Virus record (IMG/VR): IMGVR_UViG_2651869821_000001
Length of the DNA: 64,000 bases
Strand: one strand, 5' to 3'
From: a virus
Taxonomy: Duplodnaviria > Heunggongvirae > Uroviricota > Caudoviricetes
Position numbers and translations under genes: made by a program. The notes below the pieces were generated by a model. The model had not been told where the DNA came from. It saw only the letters and a list, made by a program, of their open reading frames with translations, and made no database searches. Each line of letters begins with the position of its first letter. Position 1 is the stretch's first letter. Of the stretch, positions 3,115 through 63,911 are shown piece after piece.

Positions 3115-3780
3115 ATGACCAGGATCATTGTGGTTGGCGGCACGAAAGGCGGGCCTGGCAAATCTACAGTTGCCCAGCAAATTGCTGTATGCCTAAAAGT
3201 TAAAAAGAAAAAGAAAATCCAAATTACAGATATTGATATTCAGCGCACTACTACTAGCTGGTGTGAAGACCGACGCCAGAATGAAGATCTTGAACTTATT
3301 CCTTTCGCTTATGTGCCTGATGATATTGTAAAACACATCAAATCACTCAAAGGGCGTTTTGAATATGTCGTGGTCGATGCAGGAGGTTTCGACTCCGAAA
3401 TTCAGCGCCAAGTGATGCTGTTGGCGGACTTCATTATCATTCCGCTTCGCCCTAAACGCCGTGATCTGAAATCCCTTCGTGACATTGACCCAATTATAGA
3501 TAACGTTAGGAACGTCAACGAAAAAGTGAAGATCCGAGCAGTGATTAACCAATGCCCGTCACTACCTTCGCAGGCATCCCGTATTCTGGCTGCCAAAGAT
3601 ATTGTGGAAACATTTGGTATAGAGTCCGCCCCCGTTAATCTTTACAACCGTAACGTCTATGACGATGCAGAAGAAGCTGGTCGTTCAATTTTTGAAATGA
3701 CCGGTGCGGAACGTGACAAAAAGGCGGAAGCCGAGTTTGAAGAGTTTGTAGATTACATCTTGAGTCTGGAGGAAAAATAA
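3115..3780 (+). CDS. parA: ParA-family partition ATPase
   Basis: MTRIIVVGGTKGGPGKSTVAQ deviant Walker A, ParA-like length (221 aa), followed by a small basic partner ORF. Confidence 0.7.
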   Translation: MTRIIVVGGTKGGPGKSTVAQQIAVCLKVKKKKKIQITDIDIQRTTTSWCEDRRQNEDLELIPFAYVPDDIVKHIKSLKGRFEYVVVDAGGFDSEIQRQVMLLADFIIIPLRPKRRDLKSLRDIDPIIDNVRNVNEKVKIRAVINQCPSLPSQASRILAAKDIVETFGIESAPVNLYNRNVYDDAEEAGRSIFEMTGAERDKKAEAEFEEFVDYILSLEEK

Positions 3781-10690: not shown

Positions 10691-10906
10691 ATGATCGTAT
10701 TAAGTAAGCGGGAAAGGGAAACCTTGCGTGAAATCAGTAAATGGTCGTGCTTTTATGCTCATTGGCAACCAAAAACGCGTGCCAAACTTGAGAAAATGAA
10801 CTTGGTGGCCAACGTCGAGCCGGAAGGGAAAGCGGAGAATTATCAACTGACCAATAAAGGCCGAGAATTACTGAAACAACTGACGGAAACAGGTGCTTAC
10901 TCATGA
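10691..10906 (+). CDS. Hypothetical small protein
   Basis: 71-aa ORF in series with neighbouring small ORFs (10529..10705 and 10902..11054 are also plausible small membrane proteins). Confidence 0.3.
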   Translation: MIVLSKRERETLREISKWSCFYAHWQPKTRAKLEKMNLVANVEPEGKAENYQLTNKGRELLKQLTETGAYS

Positions 10907-11051
10907 TTCCATACATCACATTAGCTTTGATTGTTGGCACGAGCCTCGGCTTCATCGCACATCGACATCTGGTTAAGCAGCAGCTTAAAACAAAATCTAT
11001 GCGCATAGGCAAGCGTGTATATCGTGTAGTTCATGAAACAGGAGTGTCAAA

Positions 11052-11357: not shown

Positions 11358-12070
11358 GTATTTACTTATTTTTGTTATATGTATAAGATTGCTTTGTTTT
11401 CGTTAGTACGCGACTGTTTGAACGTTTAAAGATAACTGCAAACGACAATCAGTATCTGGCAGTAGCCTAATAAGCCAAACACCAGCGAGGTCAGTTTCCA
11501 GCCTCGTCACCGAAATGGGACACACTGAGCGAGTGTGATTGCAGAACGCAGGAGAGGGCATGCATGGCACGACACCACTCATGCATGCCCTCTTCGATGA
11601 AGTAACAGGATGGGCGGTTGGTTTCCTCATTCCATTCACCCATCCCGGTTTCAGTTATCGACCGCCCATCCTGTTACGTCATTTCCATTACTTATGTCGT
11701 TTAATCTGGGTTAAAGCGGCGACGTAACCCGGCTGGCGTGGTTAGCCAGCACACAACGTTGAGACCACTGTTTTCTTTCAATCATACAGTGAAATCCACA
11801 GAGGCTGTAAGACTGACAAGGTTGTAATTGGGTAAAACTAATCGGTTAAGTGGTCTCAACGTTGTGGTTAATACCTTCAGGTGTAGCAAATTATGTGATG
11901 CCACAACATGGATGATTCCATATATCCAATAAGATCTAAACATCTGGCGCCTATCAACCGCCGAGTAGTCTTTAAGATCTTCGCTCTATTTGAGCAAGCC
12001 GCAAGCCTCGTCTGGCACTAACGTAAAGTGCAAGTTGCGGGAAAACTTCGGATTCCGAAGCTAGTACCGC

Positions 12071-12145
12071 TGCGAAATTGATGGTGTAGCTCAGTGGTAG
12101 AGCGGTTGACTGTTAATCAACTGGTCGGTGGTTCGAATCCACCCA
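12071..12145 (+). tRNA. tRNA-Asn (anticodon GTT), CCA encoded
   Basis: Hand-folded cloverleaf: acceptor GATGGTG/CATCATC (one G-U), D arm GCTC-AGTGGTA-GAGC, anticodon arm GTTGA-CTGTTAA-TCAAC, T arm GGTGG-TTCGAAT-CCACC, discriminator G, CCA. Confidence 0.85.
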
Positions 12146-12147
12146 TC

Positions 12148-12339
12148 ATCGCCAATGTGCATATGTCTCATAACCTGGAGCAAGGTTTAGCTGGCCAAGC
12201 GACGAAGGGTGAAGCCGGGTGGCTGGATTGAGCGGTTGGGAAGTGAAAGTCTTAATGAAATCTCCCAGAAATATCCGGATGAGTAAGAGAGAAAGTAAAA
12301 AGGATGAGTAATGGAGCAGGTCAGGTTCGAATCCTGGTA
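12148..12339 (+). ncRNA. tRNA-like element: 5' acceptor half and 3' T-arm/acceptor/CCA separated by about 180 nt (interrupted or intron-containing tRNA?)
   Basis: GTGCATA starts 2 nt after tRNA-Asn. 192 nt downstream lies TCAGG-TTCGAAT-CCTGG-TATGCAC-G-CCA, where TATGCAC is the exact complement of the 5' 7-mer. I could not fold a complete cloverleaf in between. Confidence 0.25.
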
Positions 12340-15177: not shown

Positions 15178-15444
15178 TTAAATTTCGTTTAATTCTCGGA
15201 CGAGACTACCTTTCAACTTTCTGCGTAATAGTGTGGCAGATGAATGTTTTTTGCCCGCAGAAAGACCAGCTTTAAGGCCGCGTAAATACGCCTCGGAGTT
15301 AGCGGGGTGAGTCTTCAACTCGGCAGTAACCAACGCCTGCAAAACCTTCTTCTCACCATTAATAGAGCCGAGAAGTGCGGTGCGTTCGTGCTTATTGTAA
15401 TACGACATAGCAGGCTCTCCCCTCTGTAATTGTTTTGTACGCAT
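15178..15444 (-). CDS. Hypothetical small basic protein
   Basis: 88-aa minus-strand ORF (likely start MSYYNKHER); overlaps the 3' end of the upstream minus-strand gene. Confidence 0.3.
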   Translation of the reverse strand: MRTKQLQRGEPAMSYYNKHERTALLGSINGEKKVLQALVTAELKTHPANSEAYLRGLKAGLSAGKKHSSATLLRRKLKGSLVRELNEI

Positions 15445-15961
15445 GTAAGTCTTCCGGTATCAGTGGTCGCGGAGCTTTCTTTGGCAACCCTGTACGTATA
15501 TTATAGCGCGGTTCACTTTTTAACCCAAGCATATAGTCATAGGTCTCTTCAAGAGTCGTGCGGCGCCCAATGTCCACGACACCACCAGAAGCGGCCTGGA
15601 ATACAAATCCACCAATGTTAAATTTTTCATAGTGCGCGATTAGCGCCAATGAAACCGTTTGCAAAACCACAGCACTCCCTAATCCCTCAAATTTGACGTG
15701 GCGGAAGTCGGCCAAACCATCCATACCGTCAAAAACGTCAAAATAAACTTCTGCCATTCCGTTTGCAGGAAATGCAATGCCAGGGGGCATCTCGTATCCG
15801 ATTCGAGTGAAGGTCACTTCGTCAACCAGACTCCCCACAATAACGGTATATACTTCATTGCCGGCAACAAAAACGTAGCTGTGATGAACTCGATGATCAT
15901 AAACGAATTTTTTTCGTCTCATCCCATAATCATCGAGAAAAACTTCTTCTTCTATGCGCAC
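15392..15961 (-). CDS. Hypothetical protein
   Basis: 189-aa minus-strand ORF, no motif I can name. Confidence 0.4.
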   Translation of the reverse strand: MRIEEEVFLDDYGMRRKKFVYDHRVHHSYVFVAGNEVYTVIVGSLVDEVTFTRIGYEMPPGIAFPANGMAEVYFDVFDGMDGLADFRHVKFEGLGSAVVLQTVSLALIAHYEKFNIGGFVFQAASGGVVDIGRRTTLEETYDYMLGLKSEPRYNIRTGLPKKAPRPLIPEDLHAYKTITEGRACYVVLQ

Positions 15962-16040
15962 TTATTGCCCCTTTAAGAAGCATTTCATTTTGTGTGGCAT
16001 CATTGTCCTTTAATTCTTATTTTCCGTCAAACTGACTATA

Positions 16041-16073
16041 AATGATTCCATACCTATTAAGTATGGAATCATT
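16041..16073. promoter_or_regulatory. lox/dif-like core recombination site, 13-7-13 (AATGATTCCATAC-CTATTAA-GTATGGAATCATT)
   Basis: Perfect 13-bp inverted arms around a 7-bp asymmetric spacer, about 95 bp upstream of the tyrosine recombinase gene. Confidence 0.6.
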
Positions 16074-16168
16074 GACAAAAAACCGTTAAGTTTATGTTGA
16101 TCCTATAAGAAACAATGCCTAATATACTGTTTATGCATACAGTAAAGGCGTAACTCAGTGATTGGACT

Positions 16169-17275
16169 ATGAAAAATTCCTTTGATAGAGCACGCGCAGC
16201 CGAGAACACCTCTCAAGAGACGATTGAATATCTCGACCGAGCATCACAAATGACTACGATGGCAGCCTCTCTGGTAAGTGGCGACATGCGGTTTTCAGAT
16301 GCTTTTCAGTTATTCACTCGCTTATCTTTACTGATAACAAGACGTCGACCGGAAATAGCAGTTCACTGCATTTTGATACATGTTTTGCCATTCATAGCAG
16401 ATGTAAAAGTAAGTGATATAAACAGGGTTTTAGTCAACCAACTGGTGAACCCACTGATACTGGAAGGCAAGATAGTTATGGGGAGACGCGTGTTTTCCCT
16501 GATGAAACAATTTCTGGGATGGTGTGCCTTTCAAGGGATGATTGATACATCTCCTCTTAACGATCTGTCGCTGAACAAGGTCGCCGGTGGTGCCAAACCT
16601 GCACCGCGAGAAAGAAAGTTGACTGATGCCGAAGTCTGGGTTTTTTGGAATGTCTGGGATTATTTTAATGTATGCCCTGGTACAAAATGGGCCGCTAGAC
16701 TCTGTCTCGTAGCCGCTAGACGGCCAGATGAAGTACTGCGAGCTGGAGTACAGGAGTTTGATTTAAAAAGAGGTGTATGGAATCAAGGTACACGTAACAA
16801 ATCAGCCAGACATCATTCACTACCTTTAAGTTCGCTGATGAAGAAGTGCGTTGAGGAGCTTATCAATTATGGCAAAGGTAGCAAATGGCTCGTTCCGTCT
16901 AATAAGCAGCCAGGAAAAGATGTTCCTATGTCTAAGGTGGCCATAGCACAAGCTTTAAGAAGGATTCTTGAACGCCCTGAGCTTATGGATGTGGAAGCAT
17001 TTACACCACGAGATTTAAGACGTACAGCTAGAAGCTATTTTCCAGCATTAGGGATTAATCCTGAAGTCTCGCGTAAGATTATGAATCACAGCCTTGAGGG
17101 AATGGATCGCGTCTACGATCGACACGATTACATGGATGAGATGCGAGTCGCCCTGGAAGGTTTTTCGACATACATCGCATCCATAGTAAATCAAAACGAT
17201 TTAGACGAGATAGACCACAAATTCAAGGGAGATCGTCTAGCCACCGAGCTTATTCGTATAAACTTCTCACAGTGA
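16169..17275 (+). CDS. Tyrosine site-specific recombinase (Cre/XerD-like; probable multimer resolution or integration)
   Basis: C-terminal catalytic-domain pattern ..RPDEVLR..HSLPLS..LVPSNKQ..TPRDLRRTARS..MNHS..YDRHDY; 368 aa. Confidence 0.8.
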   Translation: MKNSFDRARAAENTSQETIEYLDRASQMTTMAASLVSGDMRFSDAFQLFTRLSLLITRRRPEIAVHCILIHVLPFIADVKVSDINRVLVNQLVNPLILEGKIVMGRRVFSLMKQFLGWCAFQGMIDTSPLNDLSLNKVAGGAKPAPRERKLTDAEVWVFWNVWDYFNVCPGTKWAARLCLVAARRPDEVLRAGVQEFDLKRGVWNQGTRNKSARHHSLPLSSLMKKCVEELINYGKGSKWLVPSNKQPGKDVPMSKVAIAQALRRILERPELMDVEAFTPRDLRRTARSYFPALGINPEVSRKIMNHSLEGMDRVYDRHDYMDEMRVALEGFSTYIASIVNQNDLDEIDHKFKGDRLATELIRINFSQ

Positions 17276-17653
17276 CTTGATGGCTTCAACAACCTTTTCA
17301 GAAGCGCCATGCTGACCATCAAAGCGCTGGCGAAACGCTTCTAAAACTTTCTTTTCGTCCGGAGAAAGAGGCGCTGTACCTTCTTCTCTAAAGAACTCCA
17401 GGAGTTCTGGGTGGCGCTCTTCAAGCACCATCAACATCAGACGAACAGGGTCGGCCCCAAGAGCATTTGCCAGTGGGCGAACCTTATCAATCGGTAAAGG
17501 GATTTTGCCACTCTTGATAAGCGAAAGGTTATTAGGGTTTTTATAACCTATTTCACTGGCAATAGTTGCCTGATTTTTAGAAGAAATCGTAATTAGAGAA
17601 TCGATGTATGCAGCGTATCGACCTGATTTATTTTCTGTTTCTTTGGTAGCCAT
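17267..17653 (-). CDS. XRE-family HTH transcriptional regulator (repressor-like)
   Basis: QATIASEIGYKNPNNLSLIKSGK helix-turn-helix; 128 aa; convergent with the recombinase and divergent from downstream plus-strand genes; palindromes in its 5' region. Confidence 0.7.
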   Translation of the reverse strand: MATKETENKSGRYAAYIDSLITISSKNQATIASEIGYKNPNNLSLIKSGKIPLPIDKVRPLANALGADPVRLMLMVLEERHPELLEFFREEGTAPLSPDEKKVLEAFRQRFDGQHGASEKVVEAIKSL

Positions 17654-17915
17654 AGTTAAACCTTGCGTGTTTTGTTTATCTCTGGTAAGTGCTTACCGAT
17701 ATTACAGTAAAGGCTAGGGTTGTAAAGACTTATCTATCTATTTTAGAAGGCATCAAAGTACTTGCCAAGCGGCAGTATAACACGGCTCAAGTTACTTATC
17801 TTGCCTGGTTATGAAGGAGAAAAGTGAGATATATCTGATATAGATATATTTAGTTTTGATACAATAGGTAGTAGTATTTGATAAAATTTAACCGTGTTCA
17901 GTTGGATGATATGAA

Positions 17916-22019: not shown

Positions 22020-25000
22020 ATGAAGGCTCTGATGGTCAGAACTGACTTTTCTCTTGGAGAGTCAGCTCTTAAAGCAGAAAACGCGGTGAAGATCGCGAAG
22101 GAGGCTGGCTATACCGCTGTGATTTCTGCGGATAGCATGAATATTGCTAGTGTGATCCCCCTGCAGCGTGCCGCTGGTGAAGACATAGCGGTGATTTGTG
22201 GTGTAAAGCTAAATATTGTTGACGATCCAACGTATGAGCACCGCGCCAGACTAGCAAAAGAGTCTTCAGAATGTATGGAATCATTGGTTCGTGAACGGAA
22301 TTATAGCTTCACCGCTCTAATCAAGAACGAACATGGCTATCGTGACATCTGCGAATTAATGACAATCGCAAACAAGCGAGAACAATTTTACTTTGTGCCA
22401 AGACTCTCACTCGATCAGCTGGCGACCACATATGCTAAAGGTAACATTATTCTGCTCACCTCCGACATTGGCAGCGTATTTCAACGTAGGGATTTCGCTA
22501 ATATTATCAGCACATTGATCACTGCAGGCGGGCGCGAAAACTTCTACAACGTGGTTTACCCTCACCCAACTCCATTCTATGACCAGATAAACGTTCGGGC
22601 GATGAAAGTAGCTAGAGCGCTGAAAATTGAGCCTGTTGCGTTCTACCCTGCATATTACGAAGAGGTCGACGACGCGGATATTAAAGATATTGCGCATATG
22701 GTGACGAATAACATCAAAATAGATCAGCCTCATCGCTTGCGTATACCCTTTCAGCGTGACAACGCTGTTAATGGGCGCCGCCATCTCCTCGAAGCATTAA
22801 AAGCCTTCTCCGTTCGCATGGATGTATCGGTAACAGCTGCAATGGCCTCAACAACGCAGGACACCATTATTGAAGCCTGCACATGGCGCTGGCATGAATT
22901 GCCACCAGCACTGCCCAAGATGGCAGACGACGAGCCTGCAACTCTGATGAAGCTGGCCATAGAGGGATTGCGCAAACGTCTTACCACAAAAGAGTTTGGC
23001 TATACGCCACCGGCTTCCCAACATCGGGTATATGTTGATCGTCTGAAATACGAAATGAATACACTTACTCGCTTGGGCTTTTGTGGTTACTTCCTGATGG
23101 TTCGCGATCTGATGAATCACAGTCGTGAAGCTGGTATTCCCGTTGGACCTGGGCGTGGTTCTTCTGCTGGTTCTCTAGTGGCGTGGTGCATTGGCATCAC
23201 AAACGTAGACCCTATTCGCCACGGTCTGCTGTTTGAGCGTTTCATTAACCCAGAACGTCTTGACCTTCCGGATGCGGATCTGGACTTCAGCCAGGCGCGT
23301 CGCCATGAGGTGATCGAGTATCTCAATGAACGCTATGGCGAAGAATATGTCGCCGGCATTCCTAATTTTACCTATCTTGGCGCCGCCTCTGCTTTGCGCG
23401 ACACCGCTCGCATTTTCGGTGTAGACGCCGCGGACATGGCCGTTTCTAAAGAGTTTAAAAATCTGGAAGACGACAGCCTGTCTCTTGAAGAACTGCGTGA
23501 ACAACTGGCCAGCCTGGACAAATACGCCACCAAAAACCCGGATGCTTTCAAAGCCGCCTGCAAACTTCAAAATCTGATGCGTGGTTTTGGTCGTCACGCT
23601 GCGGGGATGATCGTCGCTGGCGTTCCATTGGTAGAACGCACGCCCGTCGAGCTGCGTGGCAATGCTCGCTGTATTGCGTTCGATAAACGTTACTGTGAGG
23701 CGATGGGGCTAATTAAGCTGGACGTTCTCGGTCTGGCAACGCTCGATCTGCTGGATAGCGCGAAACGCTACATCAAAGAGAGTACAGGGGAAGACATCAA
23801 TCTCGATGCTATCCCACTGGACGATCGCAAGGTTCTGGATGGGTTTGCTGCAGGGTACACGCAGGGCGTATTCCAGTTGGAGTCCGGCCCCATGCGCAAG
23901 CTGCTTAAAGATCTGGGCGGTGGCATTGAGCCGATGAGCTTTAAAACCGTTGTCGCTACGACCGCACTATTTCGACCTGGCCCGATTCAGTCAGGCATGT
24001 TGGATGATTACGTCGCAGTTGCCAAAGGCTTCATGACTCCGCAATCACTGCACCCAGTACTGGACGAGCTAACCGCCGAAACAAATGGCGTCATTCTCTA
24101 TCAGGAGCAAACCATGAGCGCGACTCGTTTGCTGGCCGGCTTCACAATGGCTGAGGCAGATGGGGTACGTAAAGCGATCGGTAAGAAAGATATGGAGAAA
24201 ATGAAGAGCATGGGTGAAAGATTTATCGCTCAGGCTCAAGCTGGATGGATTGATGTTGAGCTGGCAGACGGCACAACGCAGCGCGTTCATCGAGCCGAAC
24301 ATTTCAAATGTGAAGACGGAACACTGTTAACAGTGGAAGAGGCTCTTGAGAAAGGCGCAAAGTTACCTATGGCAATTGTGCGCGTGACAGGCTCACACGC
24401 TGGTTTGTCAGAAATGAAAGCGAAAGAAATTTGGGAGGCATTCGAGAAGAACGGTGCTTACCAGTTCAACAAATCACATTCTGTGGCCTATTCGCTGATC
24501 AGTTATCAATCCATGTGGCTGAAAACACATTTCCCGGCTGAGTTCTTTGCTGCTGCGCTCACTATTCTTGGCGAGGACAAACACCAGGGGCTGGTAAAGG
24601 ATGCGCTCACCTATGGCATCCGCGTCTTACCACCAGATGTTAACGTATCTTCTAATCGCATTGAGATCCGAACATTAGAGGATGGTAATCAAGTTTTGTA
24701 TGCCCCCTTCTCTGCTGTTAAAGGTTGTTCCGAGAATGGTTGCAAAGCCATCATGCGAGCACGTGAAAAAGTCGGAGGTAAGTTTGAGTCACTGGAACAG
24801 TTTGAGGAGGCTGTAGAGAAGCGTGCGTGCAACAGTCGCGTGCGAGATTCACTACAAAAAGTCGGTGCTTTCGCATCCATCGAGTCTGGGAGTCTTCCAG
24901 CAACAGACCCCAATCGTCTGCGAGACCAGGCGGAGCTGATGGGCAACCTGGTGATCGACGCTGTGAAAGCCTCTCGTCCATTCGAGATGACCCCTAAACG

Positions 25001-34344: not shown

Positions 34345-34395
34345 ATGTAAGCTGACTGCGATGAGCATCGCAGTCAATATCATGTAAAAAAGTAC

Positions 34396-34930
34396 CGCTG
34401 GCAGCATACACAGGAAGTTCTCGATAGATGTTCACCGCTGACAGCATACTAAAGTCGAATTTTAGATACGTATCTACCGTTGATAGCATACGCAAAGTTC
34501 GATGAAGACTATTTTCATCGGATTTTTAAATGTAAGCATGATCTGGTCAAAAATACCGCTGATAGCATATTACGGCTAAAAATGGGTCGCTATATACCGC
34601 TGGTAGCATATCCAAACGGAATATCACTCCTAAACTACCGCTGACAGCATACGTTAAACAAGATACATACAGATAGTTACATTCGCTGATACGAAAGCGT
34701 ATATCATCAGTGAAAGAATGTTAGTGAACACAAACATAGATGTGATGCGGTCTGTGAGGTTAGTAACCACTGGGTAATAGGTAGGAATAGATTGTGTGTG
34801 TTAAATTTCTACCGCTGACAGCATACTGAAATGTCAAAGTACCGCTGACAGCATATGTTTTACCGCTGGCAGCGTACTTTGGGCGTTAAACTACCGTTGA
34901 CAGCATACCTTTTGCCGTTGACAGCATATC
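34396..34930. repeat. Iteron array downstream of repA: about 11 copies of TACCGCTGACAGCATA in two clusters (incA-like)
   Basis: Copies at about 34396, 34430, 34469, 34552, 34595, 34635, 34810, 34841, 34860, 34890 and 34912, with 1 to 3 mismatches; both orientations are not seen (all direct). Confidence 0.85.
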
Positions 34931-36026
34931 AAAGCAGTTTAAGACTATTTGTGAGTATCTCTATCAGCTTGATGTTTTCCGGCGTCAGATTTTGCGACAG
35001 CTCGGTTATCTTATTGACAAGATTCTGTTTCGCATCGATTTCCCCTCTCTTTTCAGTCGGTTTGTCTAGCTCTCCGATGCCTTCTGGTTTCACGGAAGCG
35101 ACTTTTAGTTTCGGGTTGCGACTGTGGATCTGAATGTAGATCGAGCGTCCGCGCTTAATCTCGCTGTAGTCCAGATAACCAAGCTCTTTGAGAGATTTTA
35201 AGCCGTTGCGTATGGTCTGGTTCTGCGAACTGACGTTTCTACTACTCAGATTTAGTCGTGCTCGCAGACGAGCGAGAGAAACCGGTGCAGGTTTGGCTGG
35301 AAGACTTTCGATGAACGTATACAGCGCCTGTGCCGTTTCTTTGCGTGGAAGTTTATTAATGACCTTCAACTGGAGTAGAACCTTATGGTCGAAGCGATAC
35401 AGTTCTGCAAGCTTAGGTTCGGCATAAAAAACGACCGTGTCTTTCTGCTCGTTGTAGTCCACGCTATTGACGAGGTGAACCATCAGAAGTGAGATCTTAT
35501 TTGAGCCATCTACGTTCTTTTCTTCATATGTGCGCTGAAAAGACAATGTGGTACGCATAATTTTCAGGAGACTGTTTGTAAGTCTGTCCCGAAGAGTTTT
35601 TCTAATTTGTGACGATGGGTAGCCACAAAATTTTGCGAACTTAGTGATACTTAACTCAACACGCCCACTAGCCTCTCCGTATTCAGCCAGCGAACGTACA
35701 ACACCGACCCACGTTTTAAAATCATGATCCATATCCAAGCGCGGACCTGTTATCTTAATATCGGAGTAACCCTCTGAACGAGCAACTTCTAGCTGGACAA
35801 GCTCCTTTGAAGCATCAATCTCGTTTGGTCTGTTACGTTTGCTGTGTTTAGTCCCCTTTAACGTTGGAACGAACAGACCAAGCCTCATCAGGGCGATAGG
35901 CTGCACCGTGTTATTATTATTGGGTACAAGATCCCCTGTGTACAATTCGAGAGAATCTTCTTCAAAGTTGTCGAGGTTATCTTCTACTTCTTTGTTACTG
36001 TTGCCTTTTTTATTTTTTGTGGACAT
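34929..36026 (-). CDS. repA: Plasmid replication initiator (RepA-type, iteron-binding)
   Basis: Minus-strand ORF flanked by iterons on both sides (P1 oriR-like layout). The track ORF extends to 36173 across the upstream iterons; true start probably MSTKNKKGNS near 36026. Confidence 0.7.
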   Translation of the reverse strand: MSTKNKKGNSNKEVEDNLDNFEEDSLELYTGDLVPNNNNTVQPIALMRLGLFVPTLKGTKHSKRNRPNEIDASKELVQLEVARSEGYSDIKITGPRLDMDHDFKTWVGVVRSLAEYGEASGRVELSITKFAKFCGYPSSQIRKTLRDRLTNSLLKIMRTTLSFQRTYEEKNVDGSNKISLLMVHLVNSVDYNEQKDTVVFYAEPKLAELYRFDHKVLLQLKVINKLPRKETAQALYTFIESLPAKPAPVSLARLRARLNLSSRNVSSQNQTIRNGLKSLKELGYLDYSEIKRGRSIYIQIHSRNPKLKVASVKPEGIGELDKPTEKRGEIDAKQNLVNKITELSQNLTPENIKLIEILTNSLKLL

Positions 36027-36047
36027 GTGGATACCTTTCTCGTTCAA

Positions 36048-36150
36048 CCGCTGACAGCATACGTTATTTACCGCTGACAGCCTACAAAAAACAGACAACA
36101 GCATATTGCTTGCCGCTGACAGACTATCTTTTACCGCTGACAGCATACAC
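36048..36150. repeat. Iteron array upstream of repA (origin / incC-like), 4 to 5 copies
   Basis: AACCGCTGACAGCATACG, TACCGCTGACAGCCTACA, a partial copy, GCCGCTGACAGACTATC, TACCGCTGACAGCATACAC. Confidence 0.8.
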
Positions 36151-36338
36151 GAATGCTCTCTCAGACCAGTCACGGCGCGGCTTACAGCGATCGGGGATCT
36201 ATTAGGATCTATTTATGGATCTCTATAGGGATCTTATTATTAGGATCTATCCAGTGGATAATGTGGATAAGTAAAACAGGCATTTACGAAAATCTGTATA
36301 CCTTGTGCGGTATCGTATCCAAGACAATAACGAGCAGA

Positions 36339-63329: not shown

Positions 63330-63632
63330 TGCAACCATTTGGGAAATTCTATTCGGTTGATGGTTGTACCTGTTCGTTGTGTCGCTCACGAGGCTACAGA
63401 AAAGGAAACGGATATGATGCTGAATTGAGAACCTGTAAACATCGAGCTCGTCAGCAGAGTAAGCGACTGATTGATAAGGAGTTAAGATAGTTCGAAGGCA
63501 TTCGCGATTATTGATCAAACTGAACTATAGCAGGAGCAGTAAACAATTTGTTTTCAGAGTTAAGTTATTATTTCACCATTCAAAATTGACCAACATTTGC
63601 TTTAATTTATACTGTATGAAAATACAGTATTC

Positions 63633-63911
63633 ATGGTGGCTAAAATGGGTGGCAAAGTACCTAACTACCAAATCGTTTATAGAGACGAGACACTCAATTA
63701 TTTCAAGCCTGGAGGATATGTTTTCTTTCAAAGGCTTAAAGAATATGGCGGTGGTTATTGGTTAGGAAAAATTTACGAGGATGGATTCGAGTTTGTGCTT
63801 GAAAGGCCAACCTCATTAAGTGAGGGAATTAAGCATTTACTTGTTTTAAAATACGTTGAAGATGGGTATCTGGAATTTGTAGATGATATCGACAACTTCA
63901 AGCTCCAATGA
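63633..63911 (+). CDS. Hypothetical protein
   Basis: 92-aa ORF. Confidence 0.35.
   Translation: MVAKMGGKVPNYQIVYRDETLNYFKPGGYVFFQRLKEYGGGYWLGKIYEDGFEFVLERPTSLSEGIKHLLVLKYVEDGYLEFVDDIDNFKLQ

What the first reader, a model, noticed from the sequence alone, without database searches (positions are those of the whole stretch)
16041..17653. lox-like 13-7-13 site plus Cre/Xer-like recombinase and convergent XRE regulator
AATGATTCCATAC-CTATTAA-GTATGGAATCATT (perfect 13-bp arms, asymmetric 7-bp spacer) lies about 95 bp upstream of a tyrosine recombinase gene. This is the geometry of loxP/dif-type core sites, and together with parA and an iteron repA it argues for a P1-style plasmid multimer-resolution (or integration) module. 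The XRE HTH protein converges on the recombinase and has GGTAAGTGCTTACC and GATATATC palindromes in its own upstream region (17684..17697 and about 17835..17860), plausible autoregulatory operators.
Basis: partly seen in the sequence, partly recalled or inferred. Interest (0 to 1): 0.5.

Follow-up and report, generated by a model that had tools for sequence, protein, structure and literature searches.

The report
Plasmid recombinase with its lox-like site
A perfect 13-7-13 bp palindrome just upstream of a tyrosine recombinase gene on this Salmonella phage-plasmid is almost certainly that enzyme's own target site, an uncharacterised Cre/lox-like pair found only on plasmids, most likely used to resolve plasmid multimers, and unexpectedly under SOS (LexA) control.

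Summary
AATGATTCCATAC-CTATTAA-GTATGGAATCATT lies at 16041-16073, 95 bp upstream of a 368-aa tyrosine recombinase gene (16169-17275). That gene overlaps, tail to tail, an HTH repressor-like gene (17267-17653). The window is an SSU5/pHCM2/pMT1-type phage-plasmid of Salmonella.

Comparative evidence ties the palindrome to the recombinase, not to the repressor:
- All 130+ related loci with enough flank carry a palindrome of the same geometry, with a 7-bp spacer, 40-100 bp upstream of the gene.
- The arms follow the recombinase phylogeny: TGATTCCATAC in clade A and TGACTCCAGAC in clade B.
- Clade B includes Pantoea, Erwinia and Rahnella megaplasmids with no repressor or phage genes.
- The spacer is hypervariable.
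- Gene and site co-occur one to one and only on plasmids. In E. coli they are in 252 of 5,426 complete genomes, never on a chromosome.

The protein lacks the arm-binding domain of its nearest relatives, the P4-type integrases. I read this as a simple self-by-self recombination system, most likely for multimer resolution or cyclisation. Integration is disfavoured.

I found no publication on this system. Recombination itself is untested.

The parts
16041..16073 (.). 33-bp candidate recombination core site: 13-bp arm, 7-bp spacer, 13-bp arm
   Evidence: Read directly. It exceeds chance. A site of the same geometry lies upstream of every homologous recombinase gene examined.
16041..16053 (+). Left arm AATGATTCCATAC, the presumed binding site for one recombinase monomer
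   Evidence: The inner 11 bp are invariant in all clade-A loci retrieved. These loci came mostly from an exact-arm scan, plus five fetched independently of the motif. The outer 2 bp change symmetrically with the right arm: AA..TT becomes TG..CA.
16054..16060 (+). 7-bp asymmetric spacer CTATTAA, the presumed strand-exchange region
   Evidence: The length is 7 in every locus. About 20 different sequences occur among relatives, and some are flipped relative to identical flanks.
16061..16073 (-). Right arm GTATGGAATCATT, the inverted copy of the left arm
16097..16125 (+). Candidate sigma-70 promoter of the recombinase gene: TTGATC (16097-16102), 17 nt, TAATAT (16120-16125)
   Evidence: Conserved in relatives. 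It is below the threshold of the consensus scanner, at 8 of 12 matches, so it is inferred.
16125..16144 (.). LexA (SOS) box TACTGTTTATGCATACAGTA, directly after the -10 element
   Evidence: CTGT-N8-ACAG match. By my own count, not a tool result, 17 of 20 positions match the E. coli consensus TACTGTATATATATACAGTA, which I recalled from memory. CTG-N10-CAG is present in 98 of 98 clade-A loci with at least 75% recombinase identity.
16169..17275 (+). Tyrosine recombinase gene (368 aa), annotated as 'site-specific integrase'
   Evidence: Pfam PF00589 and PHROG 1. The AlphaFold model has pLDDT 84.6 and an all-helical N-terminal half. The best Foldseek matches are lambda Int and Tn1549 Int. The catalytic residues R184, K211, R284 and Y316 are invariant, and H307 is nearly invariant.
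17267..17653 (-). HTH (XRE-like) regulator gene, the probable lysogeny repressor, overlapping the recombinase gene tail to tail by 9 bp
   Evidence: PHROG 8. Annotated as an XRE family regulator or 'putative repressor' in relatives. The Cyrano homologue is expressed in lysogens (PMC9928086). Phage SSU5 lacks the whole module.
17684..17697 (.). GGTAAG-TG-CTTACC palindrome, the candidate autoregulatory operator of the regulator
   Evidence: It lies 2 bp downstream of the -10 of the predicted minus-strand promoter TTTACA-16-TAATAT at 17726-17699. It is conserved where the regulator is at least 64% identical. It is replaced by other GTAAGT-type repeats in diverged regulators.
10902..10914 (+). Isolated copy of the arm motif, CATGATTCCATAC followed by ATC. 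It coincides with the first codons (M-I-P-Y-I) of a 50-aa phage ORF
   Evidence: It is found at the equivalent place in many relatives, where the flanks vary.
11911..11923 (+). Isolated copy of the arm motif, GATGATTCCATAT followed by ATC. It is intergenic, about 160 bp upstream of tRNA-Asn
16775..16787 (-). Isolated copy of the arm motif inside the recombinase gene (codons V-W-N-Q)
   Evidence: It is exact in most relatives and has one mismatch in the E. coli Cyrano group.
22273..22285 (-). Exact isolated copy of the 13-bp arm inside dnaE (codons C-M-E-S-L)
   Evidence: The motif is present in 36 of the 41 loci that cover the place. It shows no synonymous variation, while neighbouring codons vary.
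15392..15961 (-). Lineage-specific cargo ORF (189 aa) in the variable slot that abuts the left arm
   Evidence: No family hit. It is unrelated to the gene at the same place in Cyrano. The left flanks of 97 loci fall into 19 unrelated clusters, whereas the right flanks form one cluster.

Best explanation
The 33-bp palindrome is the core recombination site of the recombinase encoded 95 bp downstream.

Proposed mechanism (inferred):
- One monomer binds each 13-bp arm.
- Two sites synapse as a tetramer.
- Strands are exchanged across the 7-bp spacer.

Each plasmid has one site, so the natural substrates are the two identical sites of a plasmid dimer, or of a terminally redundant infecting genome. 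The outcome is resolution to monomers, or cyclisation. This is the job Cre/loxP does for P1.

The enzyme is a 'simple' two-domain recombinase derived from P4-type integrases by loss of the arm-binding domain.

In the phage-plasmids its promoter carries a LexA box. Expression should therefore be low in lysogens and rise on DNA damage. The resulting transcript runs head-on into the repressor gene.

Shown here: the site exists; it is linked one to one with the gene; the arms co-vary with the enzyme; the spacer is free to vary; the system occurs only on plasmids; the arm-binding domain is absent; the LexA box is conserved.

Inferred, not shown: binding, cleavage positions, resolution as the physiological role, and the effect of SOS control.
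For: 1. Linkage. An exact scan for the arms found 7 stretches in 185,579 species-representative genomes and 113 in viral contigs. In every locus with enough flank, the site lies 40-100 bp upstream of a homologue of the gene, at 54-100% amino-acid identity.

2. Unbiased check. Eight homologues were fetched by protein, not by site: Xenorhabdus, Providencia, Pantoea allii, P. vagans pPag3, Erwinia persicina, Rahnella (two) and Klebsiella. All have a palindrome with 11-15 bp arms and a 7-bp spacer upstream.

3. Co-variation. Clade A has TGATTCCATAC. Clade B (43-50% identity to clade A, 51-81% within the clade) has TGACTCCAGAC. Both arms changed at the same two positions. The arms follow the recombinase tree rather than the element type. 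Within clade A the outer base pairs switch symmetrically from AA..TT to TG..CA.

4. Independence from the repressor. The megaplasmid members have no XRE gene or phage genes nearby. In phage-plasmids the arms stay identical while the repressor falls to 42-48% identity and its own upstream repeats change.

5. Self-by-self logic. The spacer is always 7 bp, but it has about 20 sequence variants among close relatives. There is one site per plasmid.

6. Plasmid-only distribution. The gene and the site are each found in 252 of 5,426 complete E. coli genomes. All are on plasmids and none is on a chromosome. In PLSDB, 930 records have the gene and 854 have the clade-A-like site, with nearly identical counts per genus.

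7. Protein. The nearest outgroups, at 27-35% identity, carry Pfam Arm-DNA-bind_3; this family does not. The AlphaFold N-terminal half is all helices. The fold matches the core-binding plus catalytic domains of lambda Int and Tn1549 Int. The catalytic residues are conserved.

8. No competing enzyme. The only other site-specific recombinase annotated on the near-identical plasmid is a small serine 'recombinase family protein' beside the tail-fibre genes.

9. Precedent. Predicting targets as palindromes next to tyrosine recombinase genes was confirmed experimentally in about half of the cases tested (PMC10250229).
Against: - No experiment or natural recombination product shows that the enzyme cuts or exchanges at this site. 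Everything here is comparative inference.
- LexA repression is an odd way to regulate a housekeeping multimer resolvase.
- The histidine of the usual H-x-x-R motif is an arginine (R281).
- Conserved isolated half-sites lie up to 6 kb away. A plain lox-like model does not predict them, and they may indicate a regulatory or architectural role for DNA binding.
- The site sits between two divergent promoters, so it could act mainly as an operator.
- The large clade-A sample was ascertained by searching for exact arms. The unbiased sample contains only eight loci.
Confidence: 0.6

Rival explanations
1. The palindrome is only an operator. The recombinase, or a degenerate DNA-binding descendant of one, binds it and the isolated half-sites to regulate its own promoter, the divergent cargo promoter and other genes. 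No physiological recombination takes place.
For: - The site lies between a minus-strand promoter-like element (16030-16002) and the recombinase promoter.
- Conserved single arm copies cannot support recombination by themselves, yet they occur at four other places.
- Spacer drift is equally compatible with a dimeric DNA-binding protein.
Against: - The catalytic residues, including the tyrosine, are invariant across 36 homologues down to 41% identity. That would not be expected of a pure DNA-binding protein.
- The 7-bp spacing is absolutely fixed, and the geometry is that of known recombination cores.
- Megaplasmid members keep the palindrome and show no extra arm copies within about 3 kb on either side, apart from one single-mismatch copy inside the Rahnella recombinase gene.
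Confidence: 0.15
2. The palindrome is an attP. The enzyme integrates the phage-plasmid, or parts of it, into a chromosome or another replicon.
For: - The gene is annotated as an integrase, and its nearest relatives are integrative P4-type enzymes.
- A tRNA-Asn gene lies 4 kb away.
- Some plasmids that carry the gene are large, at 160-340 kb, and might be co-integrates.
Against: - The gene and the site are never chromosomal in 5,426 complete E. coli genomes.
- No orphan full site was found in 185,579 representative genomes.
- There is no arm-binding domain.
- The dyad symmetry is perfect.
- A hypervariable spacer is incompatible with pairing to a conserved attB.
- The site is intact in the large plasmids listed.
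Confidence: 0.07
3. The site and enzyme mainly serve gene capture or module exchange, in an integron-like or shufflon-like way. They recombine with secondary half-sites to bring cargo into the slot left of the palindrome.
For: - The 120 nt left of the site fall into 19 unrelated clusters in 97 loci, whereas the right side forms a single cluster.
- The cargo differs between lineages: a YafO toxin, a colicin immunity gene, and unrelated ORFs.
- Single-arm sites followed by a 7-bp segment recall the one-armed sfx sites of the R64 shufflon (from my own knowledge).
Against: - No element was seen with two full sites flanking a cassette. There is one palindrome per plasmid.
- The half-sites to the right lie inside conserved genes, not at cassette borders.
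- Variable 'moron' slots are common next to lysogeny modules without any dedicated recombinase.
Confidence: 0.08
4. The palindrome is an operator of the neighbouring XRE repressor.
For: It lies close to the repressor gene and has dyad symmetry. Scattered copies recall the dispersed operators of P1 C1 (from my own knowledge).
Against: - The palindrome persists with the recombinase in megaplasmids that lack the repressor.
- The arms are unchanged where the repressor is only 42-48% identical or is replaced by a different gene.
- The repressor's own promoter carries a different motif family of GTAAGT type.
Confidence: 0.03
5. The palindrome is just a transcription terminator or RNA hairpin.
For: As RNA it folds at -16.5 to -18.9 kcal/mol, with z about -5.8. 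In Citrobacter and Enterobacter it follows a plus-strand gene.
Against: - There is no U-tract on either strand, and the scanner does not call it.
- The stem is AT-rich.
- In the window it lies upstream of both flanking genes.
- The arm sequence is conserved, not just the pairing, and the same sequence recurs as unpaired single copies.
Confidence: 0.02

Closest known systems
Cre/loxP of phage-plasmid P1, and the Cre-type pairs Dre/rox, VCre, Vika/vox, Nigri/nox and Panto/pox
   Same: - A single tyrosine recombinase without accessory proteins.
- A target of two 13-bp inverted arms around a short asymmetric spacer, placed next to the gene.
- Carried by a phage-plasmid. The known role in P1 is multimer resolution and cyclisation (PMC7969092, PMC4957104, PMC10250229).
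   Different: - There is no detectable sequence relationship to Cre. Foldseek gives Cre E about 0.15-0.4, against 1e-5 for lambda Int and Tn1549 Int.
- The spacer is 7 bp, not 8 bp.
- The promoter carries a LexA box.
- Extra isolated half-sites are present.
- Activity is untested.
- Published screens for new Cre-type systems required an 8-bp spacer, so they would have missed this one.
P4-type (heterobivalent) phage and island integrases
   Same: They are the closest sequence relatives outside the family, at 27-35% identity. They share the Phage_int_M core-binding domain and the catalytic domain.
   Different: - This family lacks the N-terminal arm-binding domain PF13356. It has short helices instead.
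- Its site is a perfect palindrome with no arm-type sites nearby.
- It is never found integrated.
Single-recombinase Xer systems (XerH/difH, XerS/difSL)
   Same: One recombinase acts on a nearly palindromic site that in XerS/difSL lies next to its gene (from my own knowledge). The role is dimer resolution. XerH is among the structural matches.
   Different: - This system is plasmid-borne rather than chromosomal.
- There is no GC-skew switch at the site.
- The spacer is 7 bp.
- FtsK dependence is unknown.
TnpI/IRS of Tn4430 and Rci/sfx of the R64 shufflon (from my own knowledge)
   Same: - TnpI uses additional copies of its core-arm motif as accessory sites.
- Rci sites have one conserved arm, a 7-bp spacer and a non-conserved second arm. 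This resembles the isolated arm copies followed by AT(C/T) seen here.
   Different: - Here the extra copies are 0.7-6 kb from the core, not within about 100 bp.
- No rearrangements between them were observed.
LexA-controlled induction modules of temperate phages, such as 186 Tum and N15 AntC (from my own knowledge)
   Same: A canonical SOS box sits on a promoter inside the lysogeny region of an SOS-inducible element. The relative Cyrano is induced 39-fold by ciprofloxacin (PMC9928086).
   Different: The LexA-controlled gene is a recombinase that converges on the repressor gene, not a recognisable antirepressor. A second LexA box, at 63610-63629, precedes a small ORF that could be the antirepressor.

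Membership tests
Tyrosine recombinase superfamily (Pfam PF00589) | The catalytic domain matches the family profile above the curated threshold | tested here: met
   PF00589 with E 7.7e-11 and 42.5 bits against a cut-off of 27.1. PHROG 1 with E 3.8e-45.
Tyrosine recombinase superfamily (Pfam PF00589) | Catalytic residues R, K, H-x-x-R, H/W and the nucleophilic Y are conserved | tested here: inconclusive
   R184, K211, R284 and Y316 are invariant, and H307 is at least 90% conserved, in 36 homologues. The position of the first histidine of H-x-x-R is an invariant arginine (R281). The assignment of residues to roles is by motif spacing, not by a structural superposition.
Simple recombinase with a lox/dif-type core site (Cre, Xer, Flp style) | The target is two inverted 11-14 bp arms around a 6-8 bp spacer | tested here: met
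   13-7-13 in the window. In all relatives the arms are 11-17 bp and the spacer is always 7 bp.
Simple recombinase with a lox/dif-type core site (Cre, Xer, Flp style) | No separate arm-binding domain and no arm-type sites | tested here: met
   There is no PF13356 hit, whereas the outgroups have it. The AlphaFold model shows only helices before the catalytic domain. No clustered direct repeats of another motif lie beside the core.
Simple recombinase with a lox/dif-type core site (Cre, Xer, Flp style) | The enzyme recombines two copies of the site | not testable with these tools
   This needs an in vivo or in vitro assay. There is only indirect support from linkage and arm co-variation.
Cre-type recombinases | Sequence or fold relationship to Cre, and a 13-8-13 target | tested here: not met
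   The profile search of PDB sequences finds only XerH and a phage integrase fragment, and only weakly. Cre chains rank 39th and lower, at E 0.15-0.4. The spacer is 7 bp.
P4-type integrative integrases | N-terminal Arm-DNA-bind_3 domain (PF13356) | tested here: not met
P4-type integrative integrases | The element is found integrated in chromosomes, typically at tRNA genes | tested here: not met
   No chromosomal place for the gene or the site in 5,426 complete E. coli genomes. All PLSDB hits are plasmids by definition of that collection.
Xer/dif dimer-resolution systems | The site lies at the replication terminus, where skew switches and polar motifs converge | tested here: not met
   GC skew is uniformly positive across the window. 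The convergent copies of the arm motif are noted but are not KOPS-like.
Plasmid multimer-resolution systems (functional class) | Single copy per replicon, plasmid-restricted, and independent of host attachment sites | tested here: met
   One palindrome per plasmid. Plasmid-only distribution. The spacer is hypervariable.
Plasmid multimer-resolution systems (functional class) | Loss of the system increases multimers and plasmid loss | not testable with these tools
   This requires genetics.
LexA regulon (SOS box) | A CTGT-N8-ACAG palindrome close to the 20-bp consensus, overlapping a promoter | tested here: met
   16127-16142 is an exact match. By my own count, 17 of 20 positions match the consensus. 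It starts at the last base of the -10 element. It is present in 98 of 98 close relatives. LexA binding itself was not tested.
XRE/Cro-CI type HTH repressors (the neighbouring gene) | The HTH domain matches a family profile | tested here: inconclusive
   No Pfam or NCBIfam hit at E<=0.01. PHROG 8 'transcriptional regulator' matches with E 7e-11. The Xenorhabdus homologue has a weak precomputed HTH_19 hit. The RefSeq/GenBank name is XRE family.

The most novel reading that the evidence does not exclude
The recombinase module is an SOS-operated switch and not only a housekeeping resolvase. LexA cleavage would fire the recombinase promoter. Its transcript has no intervening terminator and overlaps the repressor gene tail to tail in every phage-plasmid examined. 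It would silence the non-cleavable XRE repressor by convergent transcription or antisense RNA. The induced recombinase would bind the palindrome and the conserved half-sites that converge on it, including one in its own gene and one in dnaE. This binding would reorganise or resolve the replicating genome for the lytic cycle. That would be a new way of coupling DNA damage to the induction of a phage-plasmid family. The family includes Y. pestis pMT1 and about 5% of complete E. coli genomes.
Probability: 0.15. Interest if true: 0.7.

Novelty: new member of a known kind. Interest (0 to 1): 0.5.

Why it matters
**Prevalence.** This recombinase and its site are on about 930 sequenced plasmids:
- SSU5-like phage-plasmids of E. 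coli, Klebsiella, Enterobacter and Salmonella.
- Yersinia pestis pMT1.
- The large Pantoea, Erwinia and Rahnella megaplasmids.

They are also in 4.6% of complete E. coli genomes. I found no description of what the 'integrase' does.

**Annotation and plasmid biology.** Recognising it as a non-integrative, self-targeting system corrects a misleading annotation. It also gives a testable basis for the stable inheritance of these low-copy, clinically relevant elements, some of which carry resistance genes.

**Tool potential.** The system offers a compact pair that is unrelated to Cre. It has a 33-bp target, two natural arm specificities and many natural heterospecific spacers.

**Induction biology.** The conserved LexA box, the convergent repressor gene and the dispersed half-sites make the unknown induction circuit of SSU5-type phage-plasmids directly testable.

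Tried and rejected
- **Second, attB-like copy.** The exact-arm scan of 185,579 representative genomes gave only 7 hits. The five covered by my gene search all lie beside the gene. The E. coli chromosome search gave none. I rejected integration as the main role.
- **Operator of the XRE protein.** I rejected this because of the megaplasmid members that lack XRE, and because the arms stay invariant while the repressor diverges.
- **Terminator.** There is no U-tract and the scanner does not call it.
- **Terminus or dif analogy.** There is no GC-skew inflection.
- **Do the isolated half-sites switch to the clade-B arm in Xenorhabdus and Providencia phage-plasmids?** These elements have no isolated copies within 10 kb on either side, so the test was uninformative.
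- **SSU5 deletion junction.** Phage SSU5 lacks the whole block from phoH to XRE. The deletion end-points, judged from gene positions alone, do not coincide with copies of the motif (one search compared). I did not scan the SSU5 sequence for the motif.
- **Is the gene left of the site the highly expressed Cyrano moron CYRAN_43?** It is not homologous.
- **Is Panto/pox from Pantoea the same system?** No. Panto is 41% identical to Cre, and pox resembles rox.
- **Literature.** Full-text searches for the arm sequences and for pMT1, pHCM2 or SSU5 integrase function found nothing relevant.
- **Sequence search of PDB.** It gave only marginal hits.
Full report
**What is in the sequence**

The repeat finder scores it as 16-nt arms, 94% complementary, around a central T, so the 7-bp spacer is asymmetric but nearly symmetric. 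In 60 first-order Markov simulations of the window, no palindrome with a spacer of 12 bp or less reached 13-bp arms; the longest arm was 12.

Ninety-five base pairs downstream starts a 368-aa ORF (16169-17275, +). It matches Pfam Phage_integrase above threshold and weakly matches the Phage_int_M core-binding domain. It also matches PHROG 1 'integrase'.

A 128-aa ORF (17267-17653, -) converges on it and overlaps it by 9 bp. It matches a PHROG family of transcriptional regulators. In a 99.4%-identical plasmid it is annotated as an XRE family regulator.

**What the window is**

The region is 99.4% identical to Salmonella Newport plasmid CP119474.1. It is about 75% identical to SSU5-type phage-plasmids of E. 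coli, Klebsiella, Enterobacter, Citrobacter and Yersinia.

The window also carries a ParA/MipZ ATPase (3115-3780). It has a Rep3-type initiator (34929-36173, -) with at least ten iterons next to the gene.

On the near-identical plasmid, the only other annotated site-specific recombinase is a small serine 'recombinase family protein' beside the tail-fibre genes. From my own knowledge of P1 Cin, it is probably an invertase.

Phage SSU5 itself lacks the whole block from phoH to the repressor gene. Its tRNA-Asn is followed directly by the CobT-like gene. In E. coli phage Cyrano the homologous genes are annotated 'Integrase' and 'putative repressor'. The repressor is expressed in lysogens, and the phage is induced 39-fold by ciprofloxacin (PMC9928086).

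**The palindrome belongs to the recombinase**

I scanned public collections for TGATTCCATAC-N7-GTATGGAATCA. The scan found 7 stretches among 185,579 species-representative genomes and 113 among viral contigs.

In every locus with enough flank, the site lies 42-98 bp upstream of a homologue of the gene. These homologues are 54-100% identical to the window protein. There is one site per locus.

That sample is biased by the search pattern, so I also fetched homologues by protein alone. They came from Xenorhabdus, Providencia, Pantoea allii, Pantoea vagans pPag3, Erwinia persicina, two Rahnella plasmids and Klebsiella. All eight have a perfect palindrome with 11-15 bp arms and a 7-bp spacer in the same position.

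In the homologues that are 43-50% identical, the arms read TGACTCCAGAC. The same two positions have changed in both arms.

A pairwise identity matrix gives two clades:
- Clade A is 57-86% identical internally.
- Clade B is 51-81% identical internally.
- Identity between the clades is 43-50%.

The Xenorhabdus and Providencia phage-plasmid enzymes group with the megaplasmid enzymes, not with the other phage-plasmids. The arms follow this grouping. Within clade A the two outermost base pairs also switch symmetrically, from AA..TT to TG..CA.

**It does not belong to the repressor**

The Pantoea, Erwinia and Rahnella members sit in 165-575 kb plasmids among siderophore-receptor, H-NS, chemotaxis and metabolic genes. 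They have no XRE gene and no phage genes nearby, yet they keep the palindrome.

In phage-plasmids the arms are identical where the repressor has diverged to 42-48% identity. They are also identical in Chimaeribacter, where the repressor is replaced by a different convergent gene.

The repressor gene has its own, different motif. GGTAAG-TG-CTTACC (17684-17697) lies two bases after the -10 of a predicted minus-strand promoter, TTTACA-16-TAATAT. It is conserved wherever the repressor is at least 64% identical. In diverged lineages it is replaced by other GTAAGT-type repeats.

The AT-rich GATATATC palindromes further upstream are not conserved.

**Distribution points to a self-by-self, plasmid-only reaction**

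- In 5,426 complete E. coli genomes the palindrome is present in 252, always on plasmids and never on a chromosome.
- The gene is present in 252 genomes as well, again only on plasmids.
- In PLSDB the gene is on 930 plasmids.
- The clade-A-like site is on 854 PLSDB plasmids.
- The per-genus counts for gene and site almost match: Klebsiella 345 and 350, Escherichia 229 and 230, Enterobacter 92 and 92, Yersinia 63 and 63, Salmonella 49 and 49.
- The number of matches is twice the number of records, as expected for one palindrome that matches on both strands.

The spacer is always 7 bp, but it has about 20 different sequences among elements whose arms are identical. Some elements share both flanks and have the spacer in opposite orientations.

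A site that must pair with a conserved chromosomal attB could not vary in this way. A site that only meets an identical copy of itself, in a plasmid dimer or a terminally redundant genome, can.

**The protein is a simple two-domain recombinase**

Outside the family, the nearest proteins (27-35% identity) are P4-type integrases carrying the Pfam Arm-DNA-bind_3 domain. No family member carries that domain.

An AlphaFold model built from 36 homologues has mean pLDDT 84.6. It shows only helices before the catalytic domain.

The best Foldseek matches are the core-binding plus catalytic parts of lambda Int (residues 75-356) and Tn1549 Int (82-397), followed by XerH and IntI. Cre appears only at E 0.15-0.4.

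R184, K211, R284 and Y316 are invariant, and H307 is nearly so. The usual first histidine of H-x-x-R is an invariant arginine, R281.

It is wrong about ancestry.

Between the palindrome and the start codon lies a conserved promoter-like TTGATC-17-TAATAT (16097-16125). Directly after the -10 comes TACTGTTTATGCATACAGTA (16125-16144). By my own count, not a tool result, this matches the E. coli LexA consensus, recalled from memory, at 17 of 20 positions.

CTG-N10-CAG is present at this place as follows:
- in 98 of 98 clade-A loci with at least 75% identity;
- in 10 of 21 loci with more diverged clade-A enzymes;
- in 0 of 6 clade-B loci.

The recombinase and repressor genes overlap tail to tail by 4-16 bp in every phage-plasmid examined, in both clades. 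A de-repressed recombinase transcript would therefore run antisense into the repressor gene.

This may be part of the induction circuit, but that is speculation. A second good LexA box, at 63610-63629, precedes a 92-aa ORF of unknown function that could be a conventional antirepressor.

The arm motif occurs 8 times in the window with up to 2 mismatches, against 2.0 expected. Across the related loci, single copies extended as TGATTCCATAC-AT(C/T) recur at fixed places, 232 times against about 18 expected. The window copies are:
- two on the + strand to the left of the palindrome, at 10902 and 11911;
- one on the - strand inside the recombinase gene, at 16775;
- one on the - strand inside dnaE, at 22273.

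All of them point toward the palindrome.

At the dnaE place, chosen by protein alignment rather than by motif, 36 of 41 loci carry the motif. It shows no synonymous change in 19 haplotypes, while adjacent codons vary freely. This suggests selection on the DNA itself.

The copy at 10902 coincides with the first five codons of a real 50-aa phage gene. The copy at 11911 is intergenic.

Clade-B phage-plasmids have no such copies within 10 kb on either side. Their role is unexplained. Only four or five independent sites underlie the polarity, so the polarity alone is weakly significant, at about 1 in 16.

In 97 clade-A loci, the 95 nt to the right of the palindrome form one homology cluster. The 120 nt to the left fall into 19 unrelated clusters. 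The genes there differ between lineages: a YafO toxin, a colicin immunity gene, and unrelated ORFs.

The palindrome is therefore the sharp edge of the conserved module, next to a hypervariable slot. This is compatible with occasional site-mediated capture, but it does not show it.

**Alternatives considered**

- Terminator: there is no U-tract, the scanner does not call it, and in the window the site lies upstream of both neighbouring genes.
- Terminus-like dif site: there is no GC-skew switch.
- attP: this is contradicted by the distribution, the spacer variability and the missing arm-binding domain.
- Pure operator for the recombinase: I cannot exclude this computationally. The invariant catalytic residues argue against it.
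- Already described: I found no paper on this enzyme or site. Panto/pox from Pantoea is a different, Cre-type system. Published screens for new lox-like systems required 8-bp spacers.

**Verdict**

The core of the interpretation, a recombinase with its own lox-like site serving plasmid maintenance, is well supported by comparative evidence but not experimentally.

I rate it a new member of a known kind, with unusual regulatory trimmings. Confidence that the palindrome is the enzyme's cognate site is about 0.8. Confidence that multimer resolution or cyclisation is its role is about 0.6.

Noticed in passing
window 16097-16144: There is a conserved promoter-like TTGATC-17-TAATAT, followed at once by a canonical LexA box (TACTGTTTATGCATACAGTA). 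The 'integrase' of SSU5-type phage-plasmids therefore looks SOS-regulated. The box is present in 98 of 98 close relatives and absent from the megaplasmid clade.
   Followed up: yes
window 10902-10914, 11911-11923, 16775-16787, 22273-22285: Isolated copies of the palindrome arm, extended as TGATTCCATAC-AT(C/T), are conserved at fixed places in relatives. All are oriented toward the palindrome. The dnaE copy shows no synonymous variation in 36 of 41 loci. Their function is unknown.
   Followed up: partly
window 63610-63629 and ORF 63633-63911: A second strong LexA box (TACTGTATGAAAATACAGTA) follows a TTGACC promoter-like element. It lies just upstream of a 92-aa ORF of unknown function (phrog_2100). 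This ORF is a candidate SOS-controlled antirepressor.
   Followed up: partly
window 15178-16040; compare L001 2310-2864, L003 2229-3257, L135 1281-2115: The DNA that abuts the left arm is a hypervariable cargo slot, with 19 unrelated flank families in 97 loci. In different lineages it holds a YafO toxin, a colicin-immunity gene, the very highly expressed Cyrano gene CYRAN_43, or, here, an orphan 189-aa ORF.
   Followed up: partly
L010, L061, L128-L134 against the window; L026, L063, L125 against L067, L091: The 7-bp spacer occurs in both orientations relative to the recombinase gene and to otherwise homologous flanks (CTATTAA and TTAATAG; CTATAGA and TCTATAG). This looks like small loop inversions between the perfect arms.
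   Followed up: no
L005 (phage SSU5, NC_018843 36000-46600): The type phage SSU5 lacks the whole phoH-grx-recombinase-repressor block. Its tRNA-Asn is followed directly by the CobT-like gene. This fits its behaviour as a plaque-forming phage and a lysogeny role for the module.
   Followed up: partly
L007, L009, L012 (Chimaeribacter): In these relatives the gene that converges on the recombinase is a different protein of about 200 aa. The LexA box sits upstream of that gene rather than upstream of the recombinase gene.
   Followed up: no
window 34385-34933 and 34929-36173: At least ten iterons (TACCGCTGACAGCATAC) lie next to the Rep3-type initiator gene.
   Followed up: partly
window 12080-12154: There is a single tRNA-Asn(GTT) gene. 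E. coli phage Cyrano has Asn, Thr and Ser tRNA genes at the same place, so the tRNA content of this region varies among relatives.
   Followed up: no
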